NCBI GenBank assembly: GCA_964576865.1
Contig: CAZNVK010000009.1
Coordinates: forward strand, 2,001 to 66,000
Source of the DNA: an uncultured Candidatus Poseidoniales archaeon
Lineage (GTDB): Archaea; Thermoplasmatota; Poseidoniia; Poseidoniales; Thalassarchaeaceae
Length of the DNA: 64,000 nt
Reading direction: 5' to 3'
The position numbers were made by a program, and so were the translations under genes. Position 1 is the stretch's first letter, and each line of letters begins with the position of its first letter. This document shows positions 10,378-61,099 of the stretch, one piece after another. The notes beneath the pieces are model-generated. The model had not been told where the DNA came from and ran no database searches. It saw only the letters and a list, made by a program, of their open reading frames with translations.

Positions 10378-10453
10378 AAGCCCTTCATTCGAAGATGCAG
10401 TACCAATCCTTGTTCATCGACATGAGTGAAGTTCGCCAAAGCACGCAGAAGGT

Positions 10454-10468
10454 CCGCCCGTAGGGCGG
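10454..10468 (+). promoter_or_regulatory. GC hairpin CCGCCC-GTA-GGGCGG followed ~20 nt later by a TTCATA box, upstream of the surface-protein gene
   Basis: Perfect 6-bp arms with a GTA loop. TTCATA lies at 10488-10493 and the ATG at 10510. The rpl3 operon has the same layout upstream. Confidence 0.35.
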
Positions 10469-10509
10469 CGCACGCACCTACCGAACCTTCATACACAAAC
10501 CGATATCGC

Positions 10510-13500
10510 ATGAACTCGTTGTCTATGCGGAGCCTATCGTCAATCACCTTGTTCGCCATTCTCATGGTGACGAGTCTCTCGCCCCTCGCGTTTGACCCGG
10601 CACTGGACTACACTCCAGCACGCGAGGCCTCACCTCGAGCCCTATTCGATTACGAGGTGACCTCGATCGAGATTGGAAACGGTTCCCTCGACGCAACCGA
10701 GTGGACGAATCCTGACGGCAGCACCGTCGAGTACGTCATGCGAGACGAATTGATTCAGATCAACGTGACATTCACCCAAGCGGGAACCTCTGGTCAACCA
10801 TCGAGCGCAACCGGATATCTCCAGATCTGGCATCCGATCGGATTCAAGCTCGCAGAATGGCAGGTCAACATGAGTCTGTCCGGGTACCAATCTTACCGCG
10901 GAGAGTTCTACTGGACGCCAACCTCAGCTCACAGCCAGTTGGATGAGAACGGCTTCCTCGTGGGCGGCATCATCCTTCGAGGAATCGTCGATGGGGGTCT
11001 CGCTGATGATAACGATGCCAATAACCAACTCGACCGAGAGATGCCGGTCGCGGTCTGGAACGATCCGATGGAGAATGGGATCTGCGGAGATGTCGACCAA
11101 GACAATTCACCGGATTGCCCGAACCAACTCAGCTACGGCAATCCGACTTGGGTCGGAGCGGGTTACGATGCCGATGGCTCCCTCTCCGACCATCCTGATT
11201 ACTACGGCCACTGGCGAATGGACAATACCTCCAGCGCCATCGGTGAGCGCCACTGGCGAGTCTCCCGACAGGGCGCCGATTATGCCAGCAATCGTCTCGA
11301 CAGACTCTGGTGGGGCTGGCTAACTCCTTTCGACAGCTGCGATGATACGGGTCATGGTCTGGGTTACGGGACCTTCGACAATGCAATTTCAGCGCTTTAC
11401 GCCAACAATTTCTGCCGAGCTCGAATCCGTGGATTCGAGTATCTATCGCTCCAGATGGTCTCACATGCTTGGGGCGAGATGGGTGAGGGAGACATGGTTC
11501 GGATGGAAGCCGCTGCAGCCGGCGATGAATTCTACAATTACACCGCTCAGGAACTCTCTACCACGTACGGAGATTGGACTCAATTGGTCTGGAACATGTC
11601 CGATGTCCATCCAACTGGAGATTACACGCTGGCATTCAGATTCGATTCCGATTCGTCGTACGCCACTCAAGGAATCCACCTCGACGGATTCATCCTCTTC
11701 GGAATCGAGAGGGTCGCGGAATACACCCTCGACGTCGATTGTGACGACCCACTCCCGAATGCCTACATCGTCATTCCAGCCGACCCTCGACCTCCATCGC
11801 TTGCTTGCAAGGTGAAGAATAACGGATACGTGGATATTACCCTGCGCATCTACACCGAGGTATCGAACAAGTCGTGGATGTGGGAGCACCCTCTCAGAAT
11901 TGATTCAAACCACCCCTCAGATCACGACAATAGCGTGGTGACGAAGAACATCAAGGCCCTCGAAACCATGGATTTGTGGATCAATTTGACGATTCCCGAC
12001 GGAGTTACTGTGCAGGAGGTCAATTGGTACGTCCACATCGGTGACGGACTGACGAATTTCTCCAAGTGGAGCATCGATCTTCCTGTTGACGTCACCGCCG
12101 CATATTCCGCTTATCTCACTCAGAAAACTCTCGCAAATCCTGCCGTCACCCTGCTTCCCGGCGAAACTGGCGATGTCACTATGACCCTGAAGAATACGGG
12201 TAATCAGAAGGCGACTTGGAACCTCGGCGGTACTTTCGCTGACAATCGATGGAGCGCTGTGAATCTGGTCTGGATGAATGAGACTGGAGTGGAGATGACC
12301 AGTATTGAGATGGCTATCGGAGACAAATTCGAACTCAATGCTCGCGTCACCGCACCCGATGAGATAACCCCCGGCTCTTACGCCATCACCCTACTCGCTA
12401 ACGGACGGGCACCGGCTAATTTCCAGACTGAATGGACCATTCATGTCGAGGTCCCAATCGATCATGATCTCAAATTGAATCCTGAGGTCAGGGAGATGCT
12501 TGCGCCTGCTGATGGTGCATTACGCTGGATTGAGATACAACTCGTCAACGATGGAAATTCCGAGGAGGCCTTCGACCTCACCATCTCATCCGATTGGCGC
12601 CTCGGTCTTTATCTGAATGCGGAACAGACCCTTGGAATCGACCCATTCGGAGGCGATACGAGTATTCTGCTGATGTTCCCGATGCCGTATGGAATCGAGA
12701 ACGAAACCTACCAAATCTGGGTTCGAGCAACGAGTCAGAGCAATCCGCAATACCAGCGCAGCGTCCAATTGCTGCTGACGGTGCCTGAGACATACCTCGT
12801 CGATGTTCCAGACATGGATCTCACCGACGAGGTATACCGCGCAGGCGATGACCCCCGCACGATGCGCTGGGAGGTCTGGAATAATGGCAATATGCCTGAT
12901 AGATACCACATCTCCTTTGAGACGAGCCATTCTGATATCTCGGTCTTTGCAAAGGATCTGACCAATGGAAAGACCGGATGGATCGAGCCCGGTTCTTCGG
13001 TCAATCTCTCGGTGAGTTATGCCTTCGAGCAAGGCGCCGATGGCGACCGAACAGTGACCATGATTGCTACCAGTCAAGAGGCCGATTCCGTCGGTCAGAG
13101 CGTTTCAGCTCAAGGTGAGGCCGATTTCAAGGTGGGCAAGGTTGGCTGGTTACTGGTCCTGCCTCCTGCTGGAGGTCAGACGGTCGTCATCGACGAGAAG
13201 GGTTCTGTGACACTCGAATTCACTGTCCAGAACCTGCATACGACTTCTGAACAATTGATGCGAGCCGATATCGACAGGACGACTGAACCGGACCTGTTCT
13301 ACAATGTCCTCGATGTCCGCGTAGACAGTGAGGACCGTGATTTCGTTCTCGGCCCTCAGGCAACGAAGGTGGTCACCGTCACAGTGAATGTGGCGCAGGA
13401 GAATCTGGACAATCTTGCTGAGAATACGATGATGTTCAACGTGATTCTATCGGTTGACTCCGACATCGACAAGGTCTCGGTCGGAACTCCGATTCAGTTG

Positions 13501-14124
13501 GTGAAGACGGTCCAGACCTCCGATGGTCCAGAATTCGGCTTGATGGCGAAGATTGCTGCGAATATCGTCTTCGTCCTCGCCGGACTGGTCGCGATGGGTG
13601 TGGTCTTGGTCATCACCCTCCGTATCGTTCGTGAGGCGGGCGCGCCGCTTGAGGAATACTCGAGCATCGAGGATTACTCGCCGAGCTTCGTCGACTTCGG
13701 TGGAGACAGCGCGGTCCCTGCCGCGCCCGAGTTGCCCGCCGCCGATGAAGTCGCGAATTCTATGTTCGGCGGCTCGGCGGAAATCTTCGAGAATCCTGCC
13801 GCTGAGATGCCACCTCCTCCATTGCCTGAAGCAGATGCACCATCACCCGAGATGCCACCTCCTCCGATGCCAGAGCCTGAGGCGATCCCCGAGGCTGTGC
13901 CAGAGGCGATTCCTGAGCCAGAAGGGGTTGAGGAGGTCTTCGAGGAAGAAGTCGAGGTGGAGGAGCCGGCCGAGGAGGCTGTCGAAGAACCGACTCCCGA
14001 GGCCGAGCCAGAACTCCCACCAGGTGTTCCACCCGTTCCTGAAGAAGGCCTACCCGAGGGCTGGACGATGGAGCAGTGGGCCTACTATGGCCAGAAATGG
14101 CTCGACCAGAATAAGGGTAATTGA
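10510..14124 (+). CDS. Large cell-surface protein (CARDB/DUF11-like repeats) with a C-terminal TM anchor and a Pro/Glu-rich cytoplasmic tail
   Basis: Starts at ATG 10510 (MNSLSMRSLSSITLFAILMVTSLSPLAF signal). Contains repeated beta-rich modules such as LLPGETGDVTMTLKNTGNQKATWNL. The TM helix is IAANIVFVLAGLVAMGVVLVITL. The tail contains EMPPPPLPE.../EMPPPPMPE... Confidence 0.7.
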   Translation: MNSLSMRSLSSITLFAILMVTSLSPLAFDPALDYTPAREASPRALFDYEVTSIEIGNGSLDATEWTNPDGSTVEYVMRDELIQINVTFTQAGTSGQPSSATGYLQIWHPIGFKLAEWQVNMSLSGYQSYRGEFYWTPTSAHSQLDENGFLVGGIILRGIVDGGLADDNDANNQLDREMPVAVWNDPMENGICGDVDQDNSPDCPNQLSYGNPTWVGAGYDADGSLSDHPDYYGHWRMDNTSSAIGERHWRVSRQGADYASNRLDRLWWGWLTPFDSCDDTGHGLGYGTFDNAISALYANNFCRARIRGFEYLSLQMVSHAWGEMGEGDMVRMEAAAAGDEFYNYTAQELSTTYGDWTQLVWNMSDVHPTGDYTLAFRFDSDSSYATQGIHLDGFILFGIERVAEYTLDVDCDDPLPNAYIVIPADPRPPSLACKVKNNGYVDITLRIYTEVSNKSWMWEHPLRIDSNHPSDHDNSVVTKNIKALETMDLWINLTIPDGVTVQEVNWYVHIGDGLTNFSKWSIDLPVDVTAAYSAYLTQKTLANPAVTLLPGETGDVTMTLKNTGNQKATWNLGGTFADNRWSAVNLVWMNETGVEMTSIEMAIGDKFELNARVTAPDEITPGSYAITLLANGRAPANFQTEWTIHVEVPIDHDLKLNPEVREMLAPADGALRWIEIQLVNDGNSEEAFDLTISSDWRLGLYLNAEQTLGIDPFGGDTSILLMFPMPYGIENETYQIWVRATSQSNPQYQRSVQLLLTVPETYLVDVPDMDLTDEVYRAGDDPRTMRWEVWNNGNMPDRYHISFETSHSDISVFAKDLTNGKTGWIEPGSSVNLSVSYAFEQGADGDRTVTMIATSQEADSVGQSVSAQGEADFKVGKVGWLLVLPPAGGQTVVIDEKGSVTLEFTVQNLHTTSEQLMRADIDRTTEPDLFYNVLDVRVDSEDRDFVLGPQATKVVTVTVNVAQENLDNLAENTMMFNVILSVDSDIDKVSVGTPIQLVKTVQTSDGPEFGLMAKIAANIVFVLAGLVAMGVVLVITLRIVREAGAPLEEYSSIEDYSPSFVDFGGDSAVPAAPELPAADEVANSMFGGSAEIFENPAAEMPPPPLPEADAPSPEMPPPPMPEPEAIPEAVPEAIPEPEGVEEVFEEEVEVEEPAEEAVEEPTPEAEPELPPGVPPVPEEGLPEGWTMEQWAYYGQKWLDQNKGN

Positions 14125-15864: not shown

Positions 15865-15872
15865 GGTCATTT

Positions 15873-15887
15873 ACGACCGTAGGTCGT
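15873..15887 (+). terminator. Hairpin ACGACC-GTA-GGTCGT 9 nt after the thermosome stop codon
   Basis: Perfect 6-bp palindrome with a GTA loop. It shares the exact 11-mer CCGTAGGTCGT with 7813-7823. Confidence 0.35.
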
Positions 15888-15959
15888 ACCAGACGTTTGC
15901 ATCAAGTTCAAGAATCGATTTCCGGTGGCAAGCCTGCCCGTCAGGGCTGAGATGGTTCG

Positions 15960-17939
15960 ATGGCAATCGTCAGTGTCTGGATTGAAGAGGGCTGCATCAC
16001 CTGCGATGCCTGTGAAGAGATCCTCCCCGAAGTCTTCCACGTCACCGATGACACATGCTACATCAAGTCCGAAGTCCGAGTCGATGGCGGCTACGACCGC
16101 AACGAAGTTCAGGCTGGTTTGACGCCCGAAACGATTTCTGAATTCCACGATGATATCCTCGACGCCGCCGACGGCTGTCCGGTGGATGTCATCATCGTCG
16201 TCGAAGCTGGCGAGGCTGCCGCAGAGGCTACTGAGGAAGCACCTACAGCAGCCGAGGTTGAGGCCGTACCGGCCGAGGCAGCGACCGAGGCTCCCATCGA
16301 GGTTGCCGGCGACGATATCGACGAATTACTGAGTGCGGGCGACCGCAGCCTGGCAATCCTATTCGGTTCACAATCCGGCAATTCCGAGGAGCTTGCTGCA
16401 AAGTTCGCCAAGCAGGCTGCGGATTACGGCTTGACAGGCGCCGTCCACGATATGGACGGCTTCGACTTTGGTTCCCTGTCGGGCATGAAGCGTGTTCTCA
16501 TCGTCTGTTCGACCTGGGGCGAGGGCGAGATGCCCGACAATGCCGAGGAGCTTTGGCAGACCGCGACGAAGGCTCCAGCCGGCAGTCTGTCCGGAGTCCA
16601 CTTCTCGGTCTGCGCTCTCGGCGATACGAGCTACGAATTCTTCTGCGAGTCTGGAAAGGACTGGGATGAACAATTCGAGAAGCTCGGTGCGACGCGGTTG
16701 GTAGACCGCGTCGATTGTGATGTGGATTATGATGGTCCAGCGGCCGCTTGGGCGCTCGATGCTCTGGCCGCTGTAGCCGCCGTCGATGGCGCCGGCGTTT
16801 ACCACGAAGAGATGGTCGAGGCAATCAAGGCTCATGCCGCTGGTGACTCTGGTGGTGCAGATGGCGAGGACGGATTCTCCGTTCCCGACCTGACAGCAGC
16901 CGCAATTCAAGCAGAAATCAGCATCTTCCGCTACGACCCAGAGGCGGCTTCGACCGGCTCTGACACTTGGGTCTGTGCGATGCCGGGCAGCATGAGCCTA
17001 CTCGAAGCCCTTCGAACCATCAAGAGCACACACGACGGCAGCCTATCCTTCCGCGATGGGGCTGCCGACGACCCAACGACTGCAATCTGCGTCAACGGCC
17101 GATTGGTCCTTCCAGGAACCATCCGCCTCGACGCACTCGCACCGACTCGCGACGGCACACTCAGTCTGCGAGTCGACCCACTCCCCGGCTTCGATGTCAT
17201 ACGTGACCTCGTAGTCGATCACTGGTCGATGGAGCGCCGCCGCGAATCGACCGAACCATGGATGGTCGCCGCAACCCGAGAAGGGGCCGCGACCATGCAA
17301 GGCGCAATAGGCACAATGGAGCCGAATGTCGCCACGGCGCTGCACTCGATTACCGATTTCAGCAGCGCCGCCCTCCTCCAAGCATCATCCGACGCAGTTC
17401 CGCACGCTAACGGATATCTCGGGCCCAGCGTCCTAGCATCAGCCTGGGCCCGCCGCAACGACCCTCGCTCATCCCAATCCTCAGTAGCGAGCATCGATGC
17501 AGTTCTCGGCAGTTCAAACGGCATCAAGGCCGAGACAGACCTAGCTAGCATCAGGCGCCAAAACGGGTCCGGAGTCGTCATTTCGGAGGCTTTGTTGGAC
17601 GCACGAACGCACGTTCTAGAGCAGGAAGGGTTCACCGGCCGCCACGGCAAGCACGTCTGGTGGTACGCATGGACTCTGAAGTCTAGCGGCAAGGTCAACG
17701 ATACGGTCCTCTATCGACAGGTTCTGGGGCCAATTGGCCTCCTTGGAAACCTCACTTCTGGCGTCACCGCTCGCATGGTCGCTGGCTTCACTCGCACCGG
17801 TGGGGACATGTTCTACGATATGCTGGCGATGGTCGCTCCACCGGCTGGATTCGGAAAGATGCCGCGGCAATTCAATTCATCAGTCGAGAATCATCACGAA
17901 GTCGTGGCGATTTTCAACGAGCTCGACGGGAGATTCTGA
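15960..17939 (+). CDS. Fusion protein: single-cluster ferredoxin + flavodoxin (FMN) domain + Cys-less SdhB/FrdB-like domain
   Basis: 659 aa. The ferredoxin part is CITCDAC...DGCPVDVI. The flavodoxin part is LAILFGSQSGNSEELA, STWGEGEMPDNA and ALGDTSYEFFC. The SdhB-like part is SIFRYDP, SLSFRDG, PLPGFDVIRDLVVD and YLGPSVLASAWARRNDPRS, with no cluster cysteines. Confidence 0.7.
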   Translation: MAIVSVWIEEGCITCDACEEILPEVFHVTDDTCYIKSEVRVDGGYDRNEVQAGLTPETISEFHDDILDAADGCPVDVIIVVEAGEAAAEATEEAPTAAEVEAVPAEAATEAPIEVAGDDIDELLSAGDRSLAILFGSQSGNSEELAAKFAKQAADYGLTGAVHDMDGFDFGSLSGMKRVLIVCSTWGEGEMPDNAEELWQTATKAPAGSLSGVHFSVCALGDTSYEFFCESGKDWDEQFEKLGATRLVDRVDCDVDYDGPAAAWALDALAAVAAVDGAGVYHEEMVEAIKAHAAGDSGGADGEDGFSVPDLTAAAIQAEISIFRYDPEAASTGSDTWVCAMPGSMSLLEALRTIKSTHDGSLSFRDGAADDPTTAICVNGRLVLPGTIRLDALAPTRDGTLSLRVDPLPGFDVIRDLVVDHWSMERRRESTEPWMVAATREGAATMQGAIGTMEPNVATALHSITDFSSAALLQASSDAVPHANGYLGPSVLASAWARRNDPRSSQSSVASIDAVLGSSNGIKAETDLASIRRQNGSGVVISEALLDARTHVLEQEGFTGRHGKHVWWYAWTLKSSGKVNDTVLYRQVLGPIGLLGNLTSGVTARMVAGFTRTGGDMFYDMLAMVAPPAGFGKMPRQFNSSVENHHEVVAIFNELDGRF

Positions 17940-17948
17940 GGTGAGAAA

Positions 17949-18809
17949 ATGGCTACCAAGTTTGCTTACCACCCTGGAAACGTCGCCCACAGCAGCGCTC
18001 CTGAGGTTGCTGATACGATGGGACCGCTGGCCCGCGCTTTGGGAATCGAGTTGGTTCCCTTGGCGGGGGCCACCAGTTGCGGCGCCGGGATTGTAAGACA
18101 GGCTAACCGGCGCCTGCAACTGACTCTCAATGCACGCACTTTTGCCTATGCTGAGGCGCAGGGTCTGGACATTCTGACTCCTTGCGCTGCTACCGCTGGC
18201 AATTTGCACGAGGATTTGCAGACTTTGAAGTCTGATCAGATTCTGCTGCAAGAGGTCAATGAGACGCTTGAGCGAACCTGTGGCTTGACAATGACGGGTG
18301 AGGTCAAAGTTCACCATTTGTTGCATGCAATCGTTGACGAGATCGGTATTGAGAAGCTTGAGGAGAAGGTTCGTAATCCGATCGATTTCGCGGTTGCTGG
18401 GTATTACGGGCCTAACATTCAGCAGGATGGGGCTTGCGGCGGAGATGATGTGTATGATCCGAATTATCTCGAGCAGGTGATTTCTGCTTTGGGTGGGACT
18501 CCTGTTCGCTGGGAGGCGAGAACGCAGAGCGTTGGTGTTCCGGGGTTGTTTTCGGAGGAGCCGACCGTGTTGAAGCAGGCTGCTGAGGCTTTGTCTGAGG
18601 CTAAGGCTGAGGGGGCTGATTTGATTGTCAGTGCATGCAATCTTTCGCACGCGGTCCTCGATATCTATCAGGGCAAGGCTGGCCGAAATACTGGGCTAGC
18701 GACAAACATTCCAGTGATTCATCTATGTGAGATGCTGGCTTTTGCTCTGGGCACCCACAATAACCGATTGGCTCTGCTGCGCACGCGTATCGCTGTTATT
18801 GGTGACTGA
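17949..18809 (+). CDS. HdrB/SdhE(type-E SdhC)-like protein with degenerate CCG motifs
   Basis: 286 aa with a two-fold internal architecture typical of CCG-domain proteins. The motif positions read YHPGN/TSCGAG/TPCAATAG and YYGPN/QSVGVPG/SACNLSH in place of Cys-rich consensus sites. Confidence 0.55.
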   Translation: MATKFAYHPGNVAHSSAPEVADTMGPLARALGIELVPLAGATSCGAGIVRQANRRLQLTLNARTFAYAEAQGLDILTPCAATAGNLHEDLQTLKSDQILLQEVNETLERTCGLTMTGEVKVHHLLHAIVDEIGIEKLEEKVRNPIDFAVAGYYGPNIQQDGACGGDDVYDPNYLEQVISALGGTPVRWEARTQSVGVPGLFSEEPTVLKQAAEALSEAKAEGADLIVSACNLSHAVLDIYQGKAGRNTGLATNIPVIHLCEMLAFALGTHNNRLALLRTRIAVIGD

Positions 18810-18834: not shown

Positions 18835-18867
18835 GGTCAGCGATTGCTAATCCGCTCGCCCGAGCGG
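18835..18867 (-). repeat. Intergenic duplicate of the last 9 codons plus stop of hef
   Basis: 29 of 33 nt are identical to 18881-18913. Both copies translate on the minus strand to RSGERISNR-stop, so all 4 differences are synonymous. Confidence 0.75.
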
Positions 18868-18882
18868 GGCTTTGCTTCTCGG

Positions 18883-34379: not shown

Positions 34380-34438
34380 GTCGGACTCACGACTCGATTC
34401 CATGATATACAGGATAGACAGCGGCGCGGGTGAGCGAG

Positions 34439-36364
34439 ATGAGTGACAAGATACGTCCTTCACCAATCGGTATCGCCATCGTAGCCGCGATTTACTGGGG
34501 TGCCTTGGTCTGGTGGCAGCAGGATGCCCTCTTCGGATCGGACACCGACGCCCAACTCAAGTCCCTCTTGATGTTCGGAGTCTCGTTCCCTTACGTAGGA
34601 TTTGTCATTTGGGGAACGATGACAGATCTTCCCGAGAATATCGCTGAGATACCATATCTCGGACGCATGTTGAAACCTGGTATCTGGCTTGCAGCCGTTC
34701 TAGGCTTCTTCGCCTGGGGCTGGAAAGACCCATCGGTTGTCGGATTCGTCTTAGTTGGAATCGCTCTTCTGGGTCTGGGTGCAGGTCTCTCGCTCGCATG
34801 CCTGATGTATTCTGGCGAGGAGTCCAGTCGACTGTACGCGCTTCGCCGCCTAGTCGATGTTTATCCATCGATCACAAAGCCTGAAGGGCACGTCCGCTTC
34901 AATCAGAAGCTCTGGACCACAACTCTGGTTCTCATCATCTACTTCATGATGACCAATGTGATGATCTGGGGTCTTTCAGATTCGACCCTCGACGTTTTCT
35001 CCTCTTTCCGTGCGATCATGGCCGGTGCATCTGGTTCGATTATGCACCTTGGAATCGGGCCAATTGTTACAGCCTCGATTATCATGCAATTATTCGCTGG
35101 TGCAAAGATTATCCAGCTTGATTTGCAGGACTCCGCCGATAAGCAGCTATACCAAGGAGTCCAGAAGATTCTCGTCCTACTGATGATTCCAATCGAGTCC
35201 ATTCCGCAAGTCTACGGATTCCTCGACCCGCACGAGTCGATAATCATCCAGTATGGACTCGGTTGGGCAAACGCGATTATCGTCGCCCAGCTCTTCGTCG
35301 GTTCATACCTCGTATTCCTGCTCGACGAATTGGTCAGCAAGTGGGGTATCGGCAGCGGTATCTCCCTCTTCATCGCTGCCGGTGTGGCTCAGTCAACATT
35401 CGTGGGAACCCTTTCCCCACTCGCGACAGTCCAAGGGACTCCATACTCTCTGCAGAACCCACCTTCTGGGACTCTGCCGATGATTTTCTACACCTTGCGG
35501 ACGGCAACGAATTCCCAATTGGTCAGTGAGAATGGTTTCGAACTAATCTTATTGAATCACGCGAATCCTGTTGCTGCGCTGGTCTCATCGATCATCGTGT
35601 TCTTGGTTGTGGCATATGCTGAGTCGAGTAAATTGGAATTGCCACTGACTCATGGAAAGGTTCGCGGCCACAGAGGTCAATACCCGATTCGTCTGGTCTA
35701 CGCCAGTAACATTCCAGTGATTTTGATGGCTGCACTGCTCGCCAACGTCAACATGTTTACCCTCCTCTTCTGGAGTTCCCCGACGCTCTCCACGGTCCCG
35801 ATACTGGGTAAGAACGGTTGGGGTTCGATGGCGCATTACTTCGGTTCGTATGAGCCTGGTGCGACATCGCCATCGGGCGGATTCGCTTGGTATTCCTCGA
35901 TGGTCAACGGGGTTGGTGATTGGTTGATCCCGTTGCTCAACCAGAGCGGTGATGCCTATGGCCATGAGCTCTGGCAGATCATGGTTCACGTCATCGTTTA
36001 CGTGACGTTCATGACTGTGGGCTCGACCATCTTCGCTAAGTTCTGGATCGAGACCACGAATATGGGCTCGAAGGATGTGGCTAAGCAGATCGAGCGGACC
36101 GGAATGCAGATTCCTGGATTCCGCAAGAACCCAGTTGTTCTCGAGCGCATCCTCGAGCGTTACATCCCGCCGGTCACCATCTTCTCTGGTGCCTTCGTCG
36201 GATTGCTCGCGGCGGGTGCTGATCTTCTGGGAACGGTGGGTAATGCCACTGGTACCGGATTGCTTCTGGCGGTCGGAATTATTCTCAGAACTTACGAGCA
36301 GATTCAGAAGGAACAAGCGATGGAAATGCATCCGGTTCTCCGCGAGTTCTTCGGCGCTGAGTGA
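34439..36364 (+). CDS. secY: Preprotein translocase SecY with a ~120-aa N-terminal membrane extension
   Basis: The canonical archaeal SecY N-terminus (YPSITKPEGHVRFNQKLWTT...) begins ~135 aa into the ORF. The start is ATG 34439 or GTG 34430; an internal ATG at 34805 would give a conventional length. Confidence 0.9.
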   Translation: MSDKIRPSPIGIAIVAAIYWGALVWWQQDALFGSDTDAQLKSLLMFGVSFPYVGFVIWGTMTDLPENIAEIPYLGRMLKPGIWLAAVLGFFAWGWKDPSVVGFVLVGIALLGLGAGLSLACLMYSGEESSRLYALRRLVDVYPSITKPEGHVRFNQKLWTTTLVLIIYFMMTNVMIWGLSDSTLDVFSSFRAIMAGASGSIMHLGIGPIVTASIIMQLFAGAKIIQLDLQDSADKQLYQGVQKILVLLMIPIESIPQVYGFLDPHESIIIQYGLGWANAIIVAQLFVGSYLVFLLDELVSKWGIGSGISLFIAAGVAQSTFVGTLSPLATVQGTPYSLQNPPSGTLPMIFYTLRTATNSQLVSENGFELILLNHANPVAALVSSIIVFLVVAYAESSKLELPLTHGKVRGHRGQYPIRLVYASNIPVILMAALLANVNMFTLLFWSSPTLSTVPILGKNGWGSMAHYFGSYEPGATSPSGGFAWYSSMVNGVGDWLIPLLNQSGDAYGHELWQIMVHVIVYVTFMTVGSTIFAKFWIETTNMGSKDVAKQIERTGMQIPGFRKNPVVLERILERYIPPVTIFSGAFVGLLAAGADLLGTVGNATGTGLLLAVGIILRTYEQIQKEQAMEMHPVLREFFGAE

Positions 36365-39842: not shown

Positions 39843-42005
39843 ATGGAATCCTCGGGAAATAATATTCTGGATGATTTGGTTTCATTCCGCGCCCCAACAG
39901 ATAATGAGGGCAGAATTCGTCTCGCGCTCAGGATGATTCTGTTTGTAGCCAGCCTCGTTTTCATTTACATGTACTCGAAAAAGTTCCTGACGATGTGTGT
40001 GGATTACATCTCTCAAATGGCGAGGGACATCGAAATTTCAGGGGTCCAGATGAACCCCTCTCACATGCCGATGGATAAACTGACCCTTATCGTAGGCGGA
40101 ATGACTCTAGTCGCATACCTTCTGGTTCAGAATGACTTTGCCCAAATATCGCGACATCTCAGATCTCAGGATAAAGAAGAATCCTTCAATTTTCAATGGA
40201 TCTCTCCGTCACTATTCGGAATTTTCATGTTCCTAATCGCATTCATTCTCGTTGCATACTTCTTCGAATTATCGCCGAGTAGCCAGATTCCATTCCTATT
40301 CATTGGGGGTGCCATTGTTTCAGGAATCATCCTCTTACAGAATAATTTGACAGACATATTCGACGGCTCTGCGTTCAAAACGACTGCAGGACAGATTCAG
40401 GCAGGAATCACATTAGGCTCGATTCTAATCTTCGCCGCACTCACGCTTAACATCAGCTTCCTGCCAATTCTATCGCAGAACATTCCTCAAGTTCTCTCCA
40501 TTTTCATAACCCTAACCGTCGGTGTTTGGATGATTATTCTCAGGCAGGAGAGGGACAAGCCTGGCATCCAAGAGAAGAGAACCGCCGCAATGGCATATCT
40601 CATCCTTCTCCCATTCCTGATGTATCTATTGCTTAGGGTATTCTATCTACAGAATGATCCGGATCCAGTGATGGCGAATCGCTGGGAAGTGAAATTCGAT
40701 TTCATGGATAAGGTGAACACCTTCAAGATAAATCCGTGGCCAATGGAAGTCGAACCAAATGTAGATTCTCGTTGGTTATTCCTCAAAGCGGCCATCATCA
40801 ATTCCATTCGGGTGACTTTGGTGAGCATAGTACTGTGTACAATTCTTGGAACCATAGTTGGTGTCACACGATTGTCGTCGAACAAATTGGCAGCGTCGGT
40901 TGGAACCGTGTACGTAGAAGTATTCCGAAATCTTCCAGCAGCAGTGCTGCTCTTTCTCATCTCGACGCAAATCGGCTTCAAATTCCCATATTTCATCGAT
41001 GAGAAATCAATTCTCCCAATCGGTGATTCGATGGCGGCGATGTACTATAGCAATGAAGGAATTTGGTTCGTTACTGTATCCGATTATGCCCGTCTTCTCT
41101 TCGCGATAATCGGGCTAGCAATTCTACGAAGTGTGATGCGACATCGGTCGAGGGTGGAACCTCGGTTTATATCTAGACCTGATTCCACGTTAGGATTCCT
41201 GCGTAGACCTTTTTCATTCCTCGGATGGAGATTTGAACCCCTCGCTGCAGATTTATTCTTGATTGTTTCAAGTATTTTCTTCCTGATTCTGTTCATCCCC
41301 TTCATCACGACCCATGGAGGGGGTTGGAATGGGTTGATTGGCATATTCATACTACTCTACGCCCTCTATGTGACGACAAGCGTTGATGATGATGGGATGA
41401 ATTCCTTGGAAATTGATGACTCAGAGAAGGGTGTTCGGACGAGTTTCACAATATGGACGATGGCCTTCTCCTTCGCCGCTGGGATTACACTATCGGGTGG
41501 GCTTTCCTTCCCAGAATATACCAAGGATTGGAACAACGACGGCATCATCGACGCACCAGGGTCGTGGGATATTGTTGAGGGGACTGGATTTGAGATTACA
41601 CCGTTCTTCCTCGCCATGATCATCGGCTTGACTCTATTCACAGCAGCCGTTGTTGCAGAGATTGTACGCGGTAGTATCCAATCTCTTCCACGAGGTCAGG
41701 TAGAAGCAGCGATTTCTCTTTCATTGAACCCTTATCAGAGGCTTAGGTTGGTGATCCTACCGCAGGCCCTGCGCAGCATGGTTCCACTGCTGAATAATCA
41801 ATACATGAACGTCTGGAAGAATTCCAGCCTCGCGCTAATCGTCGCGTATACTGACATATTCTATGTCATTCTCGTCATGATGAACAATGTTGGAAAATTG
41901 ATTCCATTGTTCATTCTCCTTCTCATCACATACCAATTTGGTAGTTTGACAATTTCAGCTATCATGAATTGGTATAATTCCAGAGTTACGAGTGTGAAGA
42001 TATGA
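39843..42005 (+). CDS. Amino-acid ABC transporter permease (AapQ/HisM-type) with a large N-terminal membrane extension
   Basis: The C-terminal ~250 aa carry the family signature AAVVAEIVRGSIQSLPRGQVEAAISLSLNPYQRLRLVILPQALR. The ~450 aa upstream are additional TM helices. Confidence 0.75.
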   Translation: MESSGNNILDDLVSFRAPTDNEGRIRLALRMILFVASLVFIYMYSKKFLTMCVDYISQMARDIEISGVQMNPSHMPMDKLTLIVGGMTLVAYLLVQNDFAQISRHLRSQDKEESFNFQWISPSLFGIFMFLIAFILVAYFFELSPSSQIPFLFIGGAIVSGIILLQNNLTDIFDGSAFKTTAGQIQAGITLGSILIFAALTLNISFLPILSQNIPQVLSIFITLTVGVWMIILRQERDKPGIQEKRTAAMAYLILLPFLMYLLLRVFYLQNDPDPVMANRWEVKFDFMDKVNTFKINPWPMEVEPNVDSRWLFLKAAIINSIRVTLVSIVLCTILGTIVGVTRLSSNKLAASVGTVYVEVFRNLPAAVLLFLISTQIGFKFPYFIDEKSILPIGDSMAAMYYSNEGIWFVTVSDYARLLFAIIGLAILRSVMRHRSRVEPRFISRPDSTLGFLRRPFSFLGWRFEPLAADLFLIVSSIFFLILFIPFITTHGGGWNGLIGIFILLYALYVTTSVDDDGMNSLEIDDSEKGVRTSFTIWTMAFSFAAGITLSGGLSFPEYTKDWNNDGIIDAPGSWDIVEGTGFEITPFFLAMIIGLTLFTAAVVAEIVRGSIQSLPRGQVEAAISLSLNPYQRLRLVILPQALRSMVPLLNNQYMNVWKNSSLALIVAYTDIFYVILVMMNNVGKLIPLFILLLITYQFGSLTISAIMNWYNSRVTSVKI

Positions 42006-43612
42006 GTTCTCAAGGATTCGGTTTGCAGGCTTTCCTCGAACTCGAGGAGTCTATGGCTGGCAAACCAGGTTATTCTTTGGATGAGAATCGTTCTGTTCAG
42101 GTTACTGGCGCTACTGCAGTCTTTGCGGTGCTCTACGCAATACTAGGATCGGGAGGATTGCTTGAACTTCGCTCTGGGGCTATCGATGCTGGTGGTGGCG
42201 AACTAAACGCAAGCATTTACGCCGCTCTAGCGGGTCTATCGCTCGCATTCGCAATCTGGATATCGGTTACGATTTTAGCGAAGTTTACAGTAAAGAAGAC
42301 TTTGCTCACCGCAATCCTTGGTCTCATCAGCTCATGGTTAATTTTCATCGTGGTAGATGGCTTGAGCTACTTCGTTCTGGTCGAAGCAGAATGGGAGGTT
42401 GTTTGGGCCAATCGAGTCTTGGTAATCGTGGGACAACAAATGACAGAACAAATGACCCAAGCACCTGGCTCTGAATTCTGCATCTCGACATGTTATGGTT
42501 TGAACCAGAATTTCCGCCTATGGTGGATTCTTTACCCGACCTTTGGAGTCATCGCTGCTGCGTATGGAACGACAGCGGATCATCCAGCGAAATTCTTGAT
42601 TCCATTCACCATCGTCTGGGCATTCTTCGCACTTATCGCTGGGACTCCTACAGAGATCAACTATCACCGTATTGTGCCTCTGACCAACCTGTCAATCGCA
42701 CTGATAGTTGCCTTCCTCTGTTATGGCGGGTCCTATTGGTATTGCAGCAGATCTGAGGAGTACAAAGCAGTTCGACTGCGATCCTACATCACCATGGCAG
42801 CGGTCTTCACCTTCTTCTTCGCAATCGCAGTGATGGACCCGCCTCAGATAGTCAAAGATGCAGCAGTCTTCCTAGGAGCCACACCAGCTCAAGAGATGGT
42901 CAGTGGAACCCCGTCTTCTCTCGACAAATTGGCAGGAAACGGAATCGAAGCCTCCCAATGGGGTGGATTGTTCGTCAACTTGATTGTGGCGACCGCAGGA
43001 TGCGTTCTAGGCTTCGGCATTGGTGTCGTTCTAGCTTTCGGCAGACAGAGTTCACTTCCGTTCTTCAAGGTGCCATCGGTCCTCCTAATCGAATTGGTTC
43101 GCTCCGGACCGATGATCTGCTGGCTTTGGTTTGCGGTATTCTTGATGCCGGACTTGATCGATCCATTCTACGACACAGAGGATATCATGCGCATGCTTCT
43201 CATCTTCGGCTTGTTCGGAGGCTGTTACATCGCCGAGGTCATTCGAGGTGGCCTACAAGCGGTAGACAGTGGCCAGAAAGAAGCAGCGATGGCCCTCGGC
43301 CTTACATCCTTCCAAACCAAGATGACCGTCGAACTTCCTAACGCAGTACGAACAACACTACCATCCATTGTCAGCGTATTCATCGGACTGTGGAAAGACA
43401 CCACACTACTTTTCATCATCAACATCCTCGACTTCTTCAAACTGGCAAAGGATTTGCCGAATACCGATCTGCGCTTCCTCGGCGACTTCCTAGAGCCGCT
43501 ATACGTCACAGCCCTAGTGTTCTGGGCATTCGCATTCTATCTCTCAAGAGTCTCAATGAGGATTGAGAAGAGTCTTGGATTAGTCAAAGAAGGAGGAGGC
43601 GAATTAGCATGA
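42002..43612 (+). CDS. Amino-acid ABC transporter permease (AapM-type), extended
   Basis: 536 aa. Contains [42 protein letters not shown]. The start overlaps the previous stop. Confidence 0.75.
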
Positions 43613-44361
43613 GTACGAAGAGTGATGAGGTAATCATAGAAACTAGAGGAGTCAGAGTGAACTTCGGGGATTTCTGGGCATTGAAAGGAATTGACATGAC
43701 CATTCGACGTGGAGAAATCGTCGTTGTTCTCGGTCCATCAGGGTCGGGTAAGTCGACATTCATTCGCACTCTAAACCGTCTACAACCTCACAGTGCAGGA
43801 ACGATTGAAATTGATGGAATAACAGTGGATGAGGATACTTCAGTCGCAGATTTGAAATTCATCAGATCCGAAATTGGCTTCGTCTTCCAGCAATTCAATC
43901 TCTTTCCACACCTGACCATCATGGAGAATATCACCCTTGCTCCGATGAAGGTCAAGGGCATGTCGAAGAGAGCTGCTGAAGCAAAGGCGATGGAGTTGCT
44001 CGAGAGAGTCGGAATCCCAGAGCAGGCGTTCAAGTATCCGAGCGGGCTATCGGGAGGTCAACAGCAACGTGTCGCAATCGCCCGAGCGCTAGCGATGGAC
44101 CCGAAGATTATGCTCTTCGATGAACCGACATCGGCGCTCGACCCTGAGATGATCAAGGAGGTTCTCGATGTGATGGTCGACCTGGCAAAGCGAGACATCA
44201 CGATGATTGTCGTCACTCACGAAATGGGCTTCGCAAAGGAGGTCGGCGACCGCTGTATCCTATTCGACGAGGGTCATTTGATTGAGGAAGCACCACCTGA
44301 GCAATTCTTCTCGAATCCTGAGCACGAGCGAACCAAACTCTTCCTTGAACAGATTCTCTGA
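43609..44361 (+). CDS. Amino-acid ABC transporter ATP-binding protein (GlnQ/AapP-like)
   Basis: 250 aa. Walker [10 protein letters not shown], signature [15 protein letters not shown], Walker [13 protein letters not shown]. Confidence 0.9.
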
Positions 44362-56070: not shown

Positions 56071-56892
56071 TCACAGACCAATTGTCTCTGTGACATCCAT
56101 CAGATAGCGAATGAGTGATACTGCCACGGCTACTAGGTAAGGGTAGGTCAGAACACGTTGAGGAAGCATCCGAATCGCCACCTTGGCTCCTGCCCAAGAG
56201 GTTGCTAGAACCACGAAAGGAATCGCGAGTACAGCCATCTCCATCGATAGTAGGTCGCTGAGGAGAGATGGCTCGAAGAGCAGGTGAGCACCGATGGCCA
56301 CTGGCACGACTCGCATCACGATAAGGTAGGATGTGCCTGCAGCTCGGTGTGGCTCAAGCCCGAGAATCGTTCGATTCAACATGGTGAAGATTACCCCTCC
56401 TCCAACACCTATCAGACCGGCAGCGGTGCCACCACCCAGGCAACCGACTTTGTAAGTATAGAGCAGCGCGCCCTCGACCTTGGGATTGGTATCCTCGTCG
56501 TGAACGTCGGTGTGTTGCTCTTCCATGAGTTTCTTGAGTCCGCGATAAATCACCCACGCGAGAAGAATCGTTGCGAGAAACTTGACCGCATCCTCACCTA
56601 ATTCAGCGAACATCAGGTCGGCTGCAAGAGCACCGAGGACAGCTCCCCCGATAGCCACCAAACGCCCTTTGCGTCCGACTTCTGCAACCGTGTAACCGCC
56701 CTCGTCGTGCGCACGTCTACTGCCGATGCTGACGAACCAGACGAGGATTAGCGAGGCGACAATCGAGAGGTGGAGGTCCCAGCCGAGGATGAAGTGAAGT
56801 GTCGGAACGAAAAGTACACCACCGCCGAGTCCGAGAGGAGCGAACATGAAGGCGGTGATGAGGATAACAGCCAGCGCGTAGAATTCCTCCAT
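56071..56892 (-). CDS. TauE/SafE (TSUP, DUF81) family anion exporter, candidate sulfite exporter
   Basis: 273 aa with 7-8 TM helices. Contains FAPLGLGGGVLFVPTLHF and the internal repeat GLIGVGGGVIF. Its start abuts the stop of the Mo-enzyme gene. Confidence 0.75.
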   Translation of the reverse strand: MEEFYALAVILITAFMFAPLGLGGGVLFVPTLHFILGWDLHLSIVASLILVWFVSIGSRRAHDEGGYTVAEVGRKGRLVAIGGAVLGALAADLMFAELGEDAVKFLATILLAWVIYRGLKKLMEEQHTDVHDEDTNPKVEGALLYTYKVGCLGGGTAAGLIGVGGGVIFTMLNRTILGLEPHRAAGTSYLIVMRVVPVAIGAHLLFEPSLLSDLLSMEMAVLAIPFVVLATSWAGAKVAIRMLPQRVLTYPYLVAVAVSLIRYLMDVTETIGL

Positions 56893-59667: not shown

Positions 59668-59668
59668 C

Positions 59669-61081: not shown

Positions 61082-61099
61082 GTTTGACTTCCTCCAAGA

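What the first reader, a model, noticed from the sequence alone, without database searches (positions are those of the whole stretch)
15960..18809. Ferredoxin-flavodoxin fusion carrying a Cys-less SdhB domain, followed by an HdrB/SdhE-like protein with eroded CCG motifs
The 659-aa ORF has three parts. The first is a single-cluster ferredoxin (CITCDAC...CP). The second is a CysJ/P450-reductase-type FMN domain (FGSQSGNSEELA, STWGEGEMPDNA, ALGDTSYEFFC). The third is a C-terminal region collinear with succinate dehydrogenase/fumarate reductase subunit B. From memory, the matches to E. coli SdhB are as follows: SIFRYDP matches SIYRYNP, SLSFRDG matches SLSFRRSC, PLPGFDVIRDLVVD matches PLPGLPVIRDLVVD, and YLGPSVLASAWARRNDPRS matches FIGPAGLLAAYRFLIDSRD. 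Every position that ligates the 2Fe-2S, 4Fe-4S and 3Fe-4S clusters in SdhB is non-Cys here (...FRDGAADDPTTAI..., ...TMQGAIGTMEPNVA...). The next gene follows 9 nt later. It has the duplicated architecture of HdrB/type-E SdhE (CCG domains), but its motif sites read TSCGAG/TPCAATAG and QSVGVPG/SACNLSH, so most cluster ligands are lost. SdhB plus a CCG protein is the module found in type-E succinate:quinone reductases and in thiol:fumarate reductase TfrB. No SdhA-like flavoprotein is adjacent. This looks like a redox scaffold that lost its original clusters and gained new cofactor domains (Fd, FMN). I do not recognise it as a described system.
Basis: partly seen in the sequence, partly recalled or inferred. 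Interest (0 to 1): 0.7.

Follow-up and report, generated by a model that had tools for sequence, protein, structure and literature searches.

The report
Iron-stripped SdhB/HdrB redox module, MGII archaea
Abundant ocean archaea (Marine Group II) all carry a conserved, uncharacterised gene pair descended from the iron-sulfur half of succinate dehydrogenase that has lost nearly all its iron-sulfur sites and instead carries fused ferredoxin or flavodoxin domains.

Summary
ORF A (15960-17939, 659 aa) is a 4Fe-4S ferredoxin, a flexible linker, a CysJ-type FMN flavodoxin domain, then a full-length long (type-E/MFR-like) SdhB. In that SdhB part all 12 cluster-ligand columns are non-Cys. ORF B (17949-18809, 286 aa) starts 9 nt later behind an SD-like GGTGA. 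It has an HdrB/SdhE double-CCG fold (TM 0.83) and keeps 3 of 10 ligand Cys.

This is not decay. dN/dS is 0.02-0.10. The pair sits in a fixed syntenic slot (thermosome-A-B-Hef-L3 operon) in all 123 loci fetched, and A-relatives occur in 247 species genomes.

Family analysis adds three points. The A module is cluster-less in every member. The N-terminal carrier varies (Fd-Fld, Fld-Fld, Fld, Fd, Fd-Fd). Basal lineages keep one complete CCG site in B, which was lost at least twice, and only where a flavodoxin is present.

Best reading: this is a functional Fd/Fld-driven reductase. B is the catalytic subunit, most likely doing thiol/disulfide chemistry of the DsrK kind. The dead SdhB acts as a clamp and tether. 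Flavin has progressively replaced Fe-S. The substrate is unknown. I found no prior description, and public annotations (sulfite reductase flavoprotein; SDH cytochrome b) are wrong.

The parts
15960..17939 (+). Gene A (659 aa): Fd - linker - Fld - cluster-less SdhB-like module with C-terminal arm
   Evidence: ORF; domains; 120 close homologues of the same architecture; dN/dS 0.02-0.10.
15984..16199 (+). Single-cluster [4Fe-4S] ferredoxin domain (aa 9-80; C12, C15, C18, C73)
   Evidence: Pfam Fer4_13 6e-8, above GA. The four Cys are conserved in all Fd-bearing homologues.
16200..16343 (+). Ala/Glu/Pro-rich flexible linker (aa 81-128)
   Evidence: Low-complexity sequence, the most variable part of the protein (highest dN; variable in alignment A1). 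Inferred to act as a tether for a mobile Fd.
16344..16784 (+). CysJ/MioC-type FMN (flavodoxin) domain (aa 129-275); no FAD/NADPH domain follows
   Evidence: Flavodoxin_1 1.8e-31. TIGR01931 matches positions 58-204 only, at 138 bits against a cut-off of 668. GSQSGNSE, STWGEGEMPDN and LGDTSYEFFC are invariant.
16905..17234 (+). SdhB N-terminal beta-grasp domain without 2Fe-2S ligands (aa 316-425)
   Evidence: Fer2_3 5.4e-10. pLDDT is 80-90. The ligand columns read A368, D371, T374, G386.
17235..17594 (+). SdhB helical (2 x 4Fe-4S) domain without any ligand Cys (aa 426-545)
   Evidence: Alignments. The replacements S477 and E525 are conserved in 109 of 110 sequences. Foldseek hits SdhB/FrdB.
17595..17936 (+). 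C-terminal arm (aa 546-659; RHGKHVWWY..., GFTRTGG, NHHEVVAIFNELDGRF). Homologous to the extension of long type-E/MFR SdhB, with a family-specific insert.
   Evidence: Collinear with P0286, P0301 and P0293, which match PRK12577/PRK12576 over their full length. It has the lowest dN/dS (0.02). It holds the only A columns that co-vary with the state of B's cluster site. Its pLDDT is below 50 when modelled alone.
17940..17948 (+). 9-nt spacer GGTGAGAAA with an SD-like GGTGA; translational coupling of A and B
   Evidence: In most relatives the spacer is only 2-20 nt.
17949..18809 (+). Gene B (286 aa): HdrB/SdhE-type double-CCG protein. The N-site is reduced to C44 and C79 plus new H8 and H14. The C-site is reduced to C230.
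18851..18868 (+). Terminator-like hairpin after B, in the convergent spacer before the Hef gene
   Evidence: This is a consensus match only.

Best explanation
A and B form a two-subunit, cytoplasmic (or at most peripheral) redox enzyme. It descends from a type-E-like SdhB/SdhE (HdrC/HdrB-like) module.

Shown:
- The SdhB-derived part of A has no Fe-S ligands in any family member.
- B keeps the HdrB fold.
- Both genes are under strong purifying selection.
- The pair is a fixed, vertically inherited core pair of Poseidoniales-type archaea.
- The N-terminal carrier module is interchangeable (Fd, Fd-Fd, Fd-Fld, Fld, Fld-Fld).
- Basal lineages keep one complete CCG Cys set in B.

Inferred:
- The dead SdhB is a structural clamp. 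Its highly conserved C-terminal arm holds B, and it tethers the carrier domain(s).
- Electrons from an outside donor, such as the 2-oxoacid:ferredoxin oxidoreductases typical of archaea, enter through the mobile Fd and/or Fld. They go directly to the cleft between B's two CCG domains, bypassing the lost three-cluster wire.
- In basal forms the acceptor is one noncubane-type cluster facing the lone invariant Cys230. This is the same logic as DsrK, HmcF and TmcB.
- In the window's lineage that cluster has been replaced by FMN as the one-electron/two-electron converter, together with surviving thiols (C79, C230, and C44 with H8/H14, possibly a small metal site).

I commit to thiol/disulfide (or persulfide/trisulfide) reduction as the most likely chemistry. 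The overall trend, Fe-S replaced by flavin, fits iron economy in the surface ocean.
For: Homology and fold:
- Profiles, PDB sequence matches and fold searches support both homologies.
- All 12 ligand columns are non-Cys in 110 family members, with conserved replacements.

B family states:
- The C-site is degenerate in all 106 sequences, yet C230 is conserved in 106/106 and C79 in 105/106.
- The N-site is complete in 16 sequences, plus L122 and L123.

Selection and distribution:
- dN/dS is 0.02-0.10 per domain, lowest in the arm.
- A and B are adjacent in 79 of 80 genome loci and in all adequately long metagenome loci. The spacer carries an SD-like sequence, and there is no terminator between the genes.

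Carrier module:
- The second Fld arose by tandem duplication (58% identity).
- Fld-less A occurs only with cluster-competent B: 4/13 against 0/86, p = 2e-4.

Evolutionary order:
- Basal position of the cluster-bearing states and at least two independent losses.
- The only A columns that change together with B's site lie in the arm.

Precedents:
- DsrK-type enzymes have one CCG cluster plus a conserved lone Cys that is proposed to be catalytic (PMC10861901).
- Flavin-to-noncubane-cluster transfer is proposed for FadF and DgcB (PMC13083937).
Against: - There is no experimental data of any kind.
- The A-B complex and the arm-B contact are inferred. The arm was modelled with pLDDT below 50, and co-folding was not possible.
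- A flavodoxin-type FMN feeding a protein dithiol is not an established mechanism.
- The third B state (Y8, R14, D44) keeps only C79 and C230 (plus C163), so any metal-site idea cannot be universal.
- Gene neighbourhood gives no functional clue, because the whole block is syntenic housekeeping.
- The trees are NJ without support values and have short internal branches.
- The iron-economy reading is not tested against environmental data.
Confidence: 0.45

Rival explanations
1. Ferredoxin/flavodoxin:quinone oxidoreductase. The module keeps the job of its type-E ancestor, delivering electrons to membrane quinone at a monotopic SdhE-like subunit. The tethered Fd/FMN replaces SdhA and the cluster wire, giving MGII a non-pumping route to re-oxidise reduced ferredoxin.
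For: - The ancestry is long type-E/MFR SdhB plus an SdhE-like partner. SdhE is the proposed monotopic anchor and quinone site (PMC2754724).
- Flavodoxin-fold FMN proteins can reduce quinones directly (established for the WrbA/NQO type; my own knowledge).
- MGII have an orphan RnfB and an unresolved Fd re-oxidation route (PMC6336850).
Against: - No transmembrane or strongly amphipathic segment is present in A or B (KD maximum 1.5).
- It does not explain why exactly one Cys per CCG domain (C79, C230) is invariant after all other ligands were lost.
- The quinone site of type-E enzymes is itself unproven.
Confidence: 0.17
2. Catalytically dead adaptor (a pseudoenzyme scaffold). The SdhB-like/HdrB-like pair only docks the tethered Fd/Fld onto another enzyme, for example an SdhA-type flavoprotein or the NuoEFG-less complex I. 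It would serve as that enzyme's dedicated electron-input or electron-output arm.
For: - There is a complete loss of the internal electron wire, but strong conservation of fold and surface motifs shared with SdhB (FRYxP, DGSLxFR, PLxGxxVxRDLxVD).
- The carrier module is swapped freely while the scaffold stays constant.
- The third B state has almost no candidate catalytic or metal residues at the N-site.
Against: - No partner gene is linked in any of 123 loci.
- C79, C230, H123, H234 and H258 are invariant in B's cleft region, which suggests chemistry rather than pure scaffolding.
- The retention of a complete CCG site in basal lineages points to catalysis or electron transfer inside B.
Confidence: 0.2
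3. The public annotations are right: A is a sulfite-reductase (CysJ) flavoprotein and B is the cytochrome b/anchor subunit of the organism's succinate dehydrogenase.
For: - JGI, KEGG-style and Tara names for homologues say so (K00380; 'succinate dehydrogenase/fumarate reductase cytochrome b subunit').
- The same names are repeated in PMC6741140.
Against: - A has only the FMN domain of CysJ (138 bits against a cut-off of 668, no FAD/NADPH domain).
- B has no transmembrane helices or haem ligand pattern, and it is an HdrB-fold protein.
- No SdhA or Cys-bearing SdhB is adjacent, and MGII are reported to have a separate canonical complex II (PMC6336850).
Confidence: 0.03
4. Decaying pseudogenes or an assembly/frameshift artefact explain the missing cysteines.
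For: None beyond the missing Cys themselves. Some orthologues keep 5 Cys in B's N-site.
Against: - The ORFs are intact and of constant length in hundreds of independent assemblies.
- dN/dS is 0.02-0.10.
- The replacement residues are themselves conserved.
- The window's state is shared by about 77 sequences.
Confidence: 0.01

Closest known systems
Type-E succinate:quinone reductase / MFR module (long SdhB, PRK12577/PRK12576/NF042952, plus SdhE/MfrE)
   Same: - A's C-terminal 345 aa are collinear end to end with long SdhBs, including their C-terminal extension.
- B is an SdhE/HdrB-type double-CCG protein encoded immediately downstream.
   Different: - All 12 Fe-S ligand Cys of SdhB are absent, and there is a family-specific insert in the arm (GFTRTGG...).
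- B keeps 3 of 10 Cys.
- No SdhA and no SdhF are present.
- Fd/Fld domains are fused to the N-terminus.
- Scores fall far below the curated cut-offs (54 against 88 bits for dhsB; 112 against 500 for SdhE).
HdrBC of heterodisulfide reductase
   Same: - B superposes on HdrB (TM 0.80-0.83, rmsd 3.0-3.6 Å, 25-29% identity).
- It shares H123, C230-x3-H234, D238 and Q241 with HdrB.
- Its partner has an HdrC-like helical ferredoxin domain (weak HdrC profile hit).
   Different: - Neither noncubane cluster can form in the window protein.
- The partner has no clusters, and there is no HdrA.
- The host is an aerobic marine heterotroph.
- B scores 131 bits against a cut-off of 345.
DsrK / HmcF / TmcB (single-CCG catalytic subunits)
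   Same: Basal family members have one complete CCG Cys set plus one strictly conserved Cys left over from the degenerate site. In DsrK this arrangement is proposed to do di-/trisulfide reduction.
   Different: - The arrangement is mirrored: here the C-terminal site is the degenerate one.
- The surviving Cys sits at a different motif position (the first Cys of CxxC, not the CC pair).
- The window's own B has no complete CCG at all.
- There are no membrane cytochrome partners.
TfrB (thiol:fumarate reductase subunit B) and PDB 3KWL
   Same: - Both combine an SdhB-like part with double-CCG domains.
- 3KWL (H. pylori, function unknown) was hit by both models.
   Different: - In those proteins the two parts are fused in one chain, and TfrB keeps all its clusters and works with TfrA.
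- A scores 28 bits against TfrB's cut-off of 385.
- 3KWL's cofactor content was not examined.
CysJ / cytochrome P450 reductase FMN domain; MioC-type flavodoxins
   Same: The FMN domain is closest to CysJ residues 58-204 and carries the typical phosphate and isoalloxazine loops.
   Different: There is no FAD/NADPH (FNR-like) domain. Here the domain is fused between a ferredoxin and a dead SdhB.

Membership tests
SdhB/FrdB iron-sulfur subunit (TIGR00384; long form PRK12577/PRK12576) | N-terminal 2Fe-2S-ferredoxin (beta-grasp) fold plus a helical two-cluster domain, in SdhB order | tested here: met
   Fer2_3 scores 39.7 bits (GA 27). SdhB profiles align aa 316-506. Foldseek's top 32 hits are all SdhB/FrdB chains over about 250 columns.
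SdhB/FrdB iron-sulfur subunit (TIGR00384; long form PRK12577/PRK12576) | Cys ligands for the 2Fe-2S, the 4Fe-4S and the 3Fe-4S (or second 4Fe-4S) clusters | tested here: not met
   0 of 12 ligand columns are Cys in the window protein and in essentially all 110 family members.
SdhB/FrdB iron-sulfur subunit (TIGR00384; long form PRK12577/PRK12576) | Score above the curated family cut-off | tested here: not met
   TIGR00384 scores 53.9 bits against 88; PRK05950 56.5 against 228; PRK12576 52 against 344.
SdhB/FrdB iron-sulfur subunit (TIGR00384; long form PRK12577/PRK12576) | Encoded with, and working with, an SdhA/FrdA flavoprotein | tested here: not met
   No SdhA-like ORF lies in the 64-kb window or within ±10 kb in 123 related loci. 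Physical association elsewhere in the cell is not testable here.
SdhB/FrdB iron-sulfur subunit (TIGR00384; long form PRK12577/PRK12576) | C-terminal extension typical of the long type-E/MFR SdhBs | tested here: met
   The arm (aa 546-659) aligns with the extensions of P0286, P0301 and P0293. Those proteins match PRK12577 over positions 2-328 of 330.
HdrB / SdhE double-CCG proteins (TIGR03288, NF042965, PF02754) | Two tandem CCG-domain folds | tested here: met
   The model has pTM 0.82. HdrB chains superpose at TM 0.80-0.83 over 270-296 columns. PF02754 scores 40.5 bits (GA 20.6).
HdrB / SdhE double-CCG proteins (TIGR03288, NF042965, PF02754) | Two complete CX(n)CCGX(m)CXXC motifs (10 Cys) binding noncubane clusters or a 4Fe-4S plus Zn | tested here: not met
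   The window B keeps C44 and C79 (N-site) and C230 (C-site) only. Basal relatives have 5/5 in the N-site and 1/5 in the C-site.
HdrB / SdhE double-CCG proteins (TIGR03288, NF042965, PF02754) | Score above the curated equivalog cut-off | tested here: not met
   HdrB model: 131 bits against 345. SdhE model: 112 bits against 500. The cluster-bearing relatives also fail, at 167-179 and 157-159 bits.
CysJ (assimilatory sulfite reductase flavoprotein, TIGR01931) | FMN domain plus FAD/NADPH-binding FNR-like domains | tested here: not met
   Only profile positions 58-204 of 597 are matched, at 138 bits against a cut-off of 668. There is no FAD or NAD domain in Pfam.
Flavodoxin-like FMN domain (PF00258) | Flavodoxin fold with FMN phosphate loop and aromatic isoalloxazine loops | tested here: met
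   PF00258 scores 109.7 bits (GA 25). GSQSGNSE, STWGEGEMPDN and LGDTSYEFFC are invariant. FMN binding itself is not testable here.
Single-cluster 4Fe-4S ferredoxin (PF13370) | CxxCxxC...CP ligand set | tested here: met
   C12, C15, C18 and C73-P are present. PF13370 scores 33.7 bits (GA 24.5).
TfrB (thiol:fumarate reductase subunit B, NF004898) | Single chain fusing a cluster-bearing SdhB with two CCG domains, encoded with TfrA | tested here: not met
   The parts are on two separate genes, there are no clusters and there is no TfrA. The score is 28.4 bits against a cut-off of 385.
DsrK-type single-CCG disulfide/trisulfide reductase subunit | One complete CCG motif plus a conserved lone Cys from the degenerate site | tested here: not met
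   The window B has no complete CCG motif. Basal relatives do meet this pattern, in mirrored form. The resemblance is in working logic, not in membership.
Succinate dehydrogenase cytochrome b / membrane anchor (public annotation of B) | Transmembrane helices and haem-ligating histidines | tested here: not met
   The maximum Kyte-Doolittle 19-residue window is 1.5, so there is no TM segment. The fold is soluble and HdrB-like.

The most novel reading that the evidence does not exclude
The pair is a previously unrecognised class of redox enzyme. It would be the main ferredoxin/flavodoxin-oxidising reductase of Marine Group II archaea. An ancestral five-cluster Fe-S machine was rebuilt step by step into a flavin-plus-thiol enzyme. 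The Fld-Fld and Fld-only forms, about half of the lineages, would be completely iron-free. This would be a fixed genomic adaptation to iron scarcity in the surface ocean, and the first double-CCG/HdrB-fold catalyst that works without any noncubane cluster.
Probability: 0.15. Interest if true: 0.85.

Novelty: new variant of a known kind. Interest (0 to 1): 0.62.

Why it matters
Marine Group II archaea are among the most abundant and transcriptionally active archaea of the upper ocean, at about 8% of metatranscriptomes in one recent study (PMC13096325). None has been cultured.

This gene pair is a universal, strongly constrained part of their genomes. It sits beside the ribosomal protein operon, yet its function is unknown. 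It is currently mislabelled as 'sulfite reductase flavoprotein' and 'succinate dehydrogenase cytochrome b', which can corrupt metabolic reconstructions of sulfur assimilation and complex II.

Biochemically, it would show that the SdhB and HdrB folds can be kept and used after losing their Fe-S clusters. It would also be a natural series in which Fe-S cofactors are replaced stepwise by flavin: Fd-Fd, then Fd-Fld, then Fld-Fld, with B's cluster lost twice. That bears on two open questions:
- How these archaea re-oxidise ferredoxin.
- How far iron economy can remodel core redox enzymes.

Tried and rejected
- **Asp/Glu-racemase idea.** Pfam PF01177 gave a sub-threshold hit on B aa 208-280, and 'SACNLSH' resembles the racemase 'ACNTAH'. 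I rejected it: racemases appear only as remote fold hits (TM ~0.35, E ≥ 8e-4) against HdrB at TM 0.83, and the motif is the HdrB CPFCH motif with one Cys lost.
- **Pseudogene or assembly error.** Rejected.
- **Gene-neighbourhood inference.** The block S8 protease, aminotransferase, membrane protein, surface protein, thermosome, A, B, Hef, L3 operon is syntenic in all lineages, even the 3-Mb, 69% GC genome. It carries no functional signal.
- **Modelling B with a diverse alignment that included cluster-bearing relatives.** A2, which holds window-type sequences only, was used instead.
- **Measuring the distances C79-C230 and H8/H14/C44/C79.** Model coordinates are not exposed to scripts.
- **Locating the canonical SdhA/SdhB of MGII genomes.** I wanted to test whether the pair is an in-lineage duplicate.
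- **Expression evidence.** Damashek 2021 and the 2026 metatranscriptome paper say nothing specific.
- **Literature searches for a prior description.** Only the auto-annotation mention in PMC6741140 turned up.
- **Identity of 3KWL.** It is listed only as an uncharacterised protein.

Full report
**1. What is there**

The window comes from a Marine Group II (Poseidoniales, Thalassarchaeaceae-type) archaeon. Homologues of both proteins carry those organism names, and the neighbours are archaeal housekeeping genes: a thermosome, a Hef helicase-nuclease, and an L3-L4-L23-L2-S19-L22-S3 operon.

ORF A runs 15960..17939 (+) and encodes 659 aa. ORF B runs 17949..18809 (+) and encodes 286 aa. The 9-nt spacer is GGTGAGAAA, which contains an SD-like GGTGA. 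There is no terminator-like site between the genes, and there is one just after B. I take the two genes as one bicistronic unit.

**2. Domains of A**

- Pfam finds Fer4_13 at aa 9-79, Flavodoxin_1 at aa 133-256 (1.8e-31) and Fer2_3, the SdhB N-terminal domain, at aa 320-424 (5.4e-10). All three are above their gathering scores.
- NCBIfam places the FMN domain closest to CysJ, but only over CysJ positions 58-204. The score is 138 bits against a cut-off of 668, and there is no FAD/NADPH domain.
- SdhB models align aa 316-506 at 1e-15, below their cut-offs.
- phmmer against the PDB hits FrdB and SdhB (1.5e-6).
- An AF2 model of aa 300-659 is confident in the beta-grasp domain, moderate in the helical domain and poor in the last ~90 residues. 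It retrieves SdhB/FrdB chains as its top 32 PDB hits, at E ~1e-10 over about 250 columns.

**3. The C-terminal arm and the ancestry of A**

An exhaustive search of 1.84 billion representative proteins with aa 300-659 gave only 16 clusters at E < 1e-30. Scores then jump to ordinary Cys-bearing SdhBs of 310-380 aa at 1e-11 and weaker.

These SdhBs match the long SdhB models PRK12577, PRK12576 and MFR-SdhB over their full length. Type-E SdhB of this kind carries a second 4Fe-4S and pairs with SdhE (PMC2754724).

A is collinear with them to its last residue. This includes the C-terminal extension (aa 546-659), which in A carries a family-specific insert, GFTRTGG.... The arm is the most conserved part of the protein and has the lowest dN/dS, 0.02.

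**4. Loss of ligands in A**

I aligned 110 family members with 8 long SdhBs. The 12 columns that are Cys in at least 7 of the 8 canonical proteins are non-Cys in the family. Only six sequences carry a single Cys at one of these columns.

In the window protein the columns read A368, D371, T374, G386 / F467, A470, L473, S477 / E525, L528, I531, N535. The replacements are themselves conserved: S477 and E525 in 109 of 110, T374 in 99 of 110. The SdhB part was therefore cluster-less in the common ancestor of the family and has been maintained that way.

**5. B**

- B matches HdrB (TIGR03288, 3.8e-38) and MFR SdhE (4.7e-32) over its full length, but scores far below both cut-offs: 131 against 345 bits and 112 against 500 bits.
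- PDB HdrB chains match at 6e-31.
- The model (pTM 0.82) superposes on HdrB at TM 0.80-0.83.
- Of the ten HdrB ligand positions, the window protein keeps C44 and C79 in the N-terminal site and C230 in the C-terminal site.
- There are no transmembrane segments in A or B. The public label 'cytochrome b subunit' is therefore wrong.

**6. Not decay, and not an artefact**

- Hundreds of independent assemblies encode both proteins at constant length.
- 247 species-representative genomes encode a relative of A. The best 80 are all Poseidoniales.
- dN/dS against the closest relatives is 0.08 for Fd, 0.06-0.07 for Fld, 0.04-0.10 for the SdhB-like domains, 0.02 for the arm and 0.06-0.07 for B.

**7. Distribution and context**

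The order thermosome, A, B, Hef (minus strand), L3 operon is kept in all 80 genome loci, in 41 divergent metagenome loci (A 35-49% identical), and in two loci from a 69% GC lineage with a 3-Mb contig. The upstream protease, aminotransferase, membrane protein and surface protein are usually kept as well.

The pair is therefore an old, vertically inherited core feature of this archaeal group. The neighbourhood says nothing about its function.

Pereira et al. 2019 saw the two genes at this position under their automatic names, without analysing them (PMC6741140). Tully 2019 reports a separate canonical complex II in MGII (PMC6336850).

**8. Variation that bears on mechanism**

(a) The N-terminal carrier module varies while the SdhB-like module stays constant. 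The counts are Fd-Fld 48, Fld-Fld 42, Fld about 17, Fd 1 (plus L122 and L123) and Fd-Fd 1. The extra Fld is a tandem duplicate of the internal one, at 58% identity.

(b) B's C-terminal CCG site is degenerate in all 106 sequences, yet C230 is invariant. B's N-terminal site occurs in three states:

| State of B's N-terminal site | Residues | Sequences |
|---|---|---|
| Complete | five Cys, with F/Y8 and K/Q14 | 16, plus L122/L123 |
| Window type | H8, N11, H14, S43, C44, C79, T82 | 77 |
| Third state | Y8, N11, R14, S43, D44, C79 | 13 |

(c) A proteins without a flavodoxin occur only with a B that has the complete site: 4 of 13 against 0 of 86, Fisher p = 2e-4, not corrected for phylogeny.

(d) I built two trees: an outgroup-rooted NJ tree of the SdhB-like part, and a midpoint-rooted NJ tree of thermosome+L3+L4. 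Both place the Fd-Fd and Fd-only, cluster-competent lineages basally. Both show the complete site lost at least twice, once on the way to the window's clade and once or more inside its sister clade. The internal branches are short and I have no support values.

(e) Only three A columns differ between partners of cluster-bearing B and partners of both cluster-less B groups: F569Y, L579V and T588V. All three lie in the arm. This fits the arm touching B near its N-terminal site.

**9. How it most likely works**

Shown: the internal three-cluster wire of SdhB is gone. The only redox cofactor sites left in the window pair are the Fd cluster and the FMN site. B keeps the HdrB fold, with one invariant Cys per CCG domain.

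Inferred:
- The dead SdhB is a clamp (through the arm) and a tether.
- The Fd sits on a ~45-residue Ala/Glu/Pro linker, the fastest-evolving segment, and acts as a mobile carrier.
- Electrons reach B's inter-domain cleft directly from Fd or FMN.

Two published precedents make this reasonable:
- DsrK, HmcF and TmcB have a single CCG cluster plus a strictly conserved Cys left from the missing site. That Cys is proposed to be catalytic in di-/trisulfide reduction (PMC10861901). Basal family members have the same arrangement in mirror image.
- The EtfD homologues FadF and DgcB lack one CCG cluster. They are proposed to receive electrons from a flavin directly into the remaining noncubane cluster (PMC13083937).

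In the window's lineage the last B cluster has been replaced, functionally, by FMN and the surviving thiols. H8, H14, C44 and C79 co-vary as a set and may form a small metal site.

I therefore favour Fd/Fld-dependent thiol/disulfide-type chemistry. The main rivals are a quinone-reductase role inherited from the type-E ancestor and a pure adaptor role. None of these can be decided without experiments or a co-folded structure.

**10. Iron economy**

Counting ligand sets, the module goes from about 12 Fe (Fd-Fd plus the B cluster) through 8 and 4 (the window) to 0 in the Fld-Fld and Fld-only forms, which make up about half of the loci.

Replacement of ferredoxin by flavodoxin is the classic response of marine microbes to iron scarcity. 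That is established knowledge, not something tested here. The link is an inference, and it could be tested against depth and iron metadata.

**11. Comparison and novelty**

The pair works most like a stripped-down type-E SdhB/SdhE or HdrC/HdrB module. It fails the defining features of each family: the ligand cysteines, the curated score cut-offs and the SdhA or HdrA partner. It is not CysJ, not TfrB and not an SDH anchor.

I found no description of a cluster-less SdhB, of a double-CCG protein without any complete CCG motif, or of Fd/Fld-SdhB fusions. I rate it a new variant of a known kind. There is a modest chance (about 0.15) that it is a truly new type of flavin/thiol enzyme with ecological weight.

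**12. Limits**

- No complex prediction was possible.
- The trees have no support values.
- The substrate is unknown.
- The location and type of the genuine SDH genes in these genomes were not checked.

Noticed in passing
window 56071-62248 (- strand): A cluster of four genes: a TauE/SafE sulfite exporter (56071-56892), a 924-aa molybdopterin oxidoreductase (56893-59667), a Fer4_11 + NrfD fusion protein (59669-61081) and a rhodanese + metallo-beta-lactamase protein of persulfide-dioxygenase type (61100-62248). It looks like a sulfite/persulfide/polysulfide-handling unit.
   Followed up: partly
PDB entry 3KWL (H. pylori uncharacterised protein, 514 aa): This entry was hit by both the A model (E 1e-4) and the B model (E 2e-9, TMq 0.70). 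The SdhB profile also hits its residues 20-123 (E 0.004). It appears to be a single-chain SdhB-N plus double-CCG protein of unknown function. Its Cys and cofactor content were not examined.
   Followed up: partly
L122:7490-9943 and L123:7512-10004; L122:15940-16233 and L123:15490-15885: In the high-GC (0.69) basal lineage, an 817-830-aa PLD-like (PLDc_2) gene is inserted between the thermosome and A. In L123 it overlaps A's start by 4 nt. An OsmC-family gene sits between Hef and the L3 operon.
   Followed up: no
window 40001-44000 and 60001-64000: G+C drops to 0.45-0.50 against about 0.57 elsewhere. The first stretch covers the ABC-transporter permease genes. These may be islands or compositionally distinct genes.
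   Followed up: no
window 15872-15888: A perfect 7-bp hairpin (TACGACC-GTA-GGTCGTA) lies 8 nt after the thermosome stop codon and about 70 nt before gene A. It may be a transcript-end or processing signal separating the thermosome from the A-B unit.
   Followed up: no
window 10426-14124: A 1232-aa predicted surface protein with a C-terminal hydrophobic segment and a Pro/Glu/Ala-rich tail. It is conserved in position but diverges fast (25-87% identity) across the related loci.
   Followed up: no
public annotations of homologues (P0027, P0118, P0201, P0216, P0240 etc.): A is labelled COG0369/K00380 'sulfite reductase flavoprotein'. B is labelled 'succinate dehydrogenase/fumarate reductase cytochrome b subunit'. 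Both labels contradict the domain content and could distort KEGG-based reconstructions of MGII metabolism.
   Followed up: partly
window 34430-36364: The longest SecY ORF is 644 aa, but the Plug and SecY domains begin only at about aa 169. The GTG start is probably too far upstream, which would be an ORF-calling artefact rather than a real extension.
   Followed up: no
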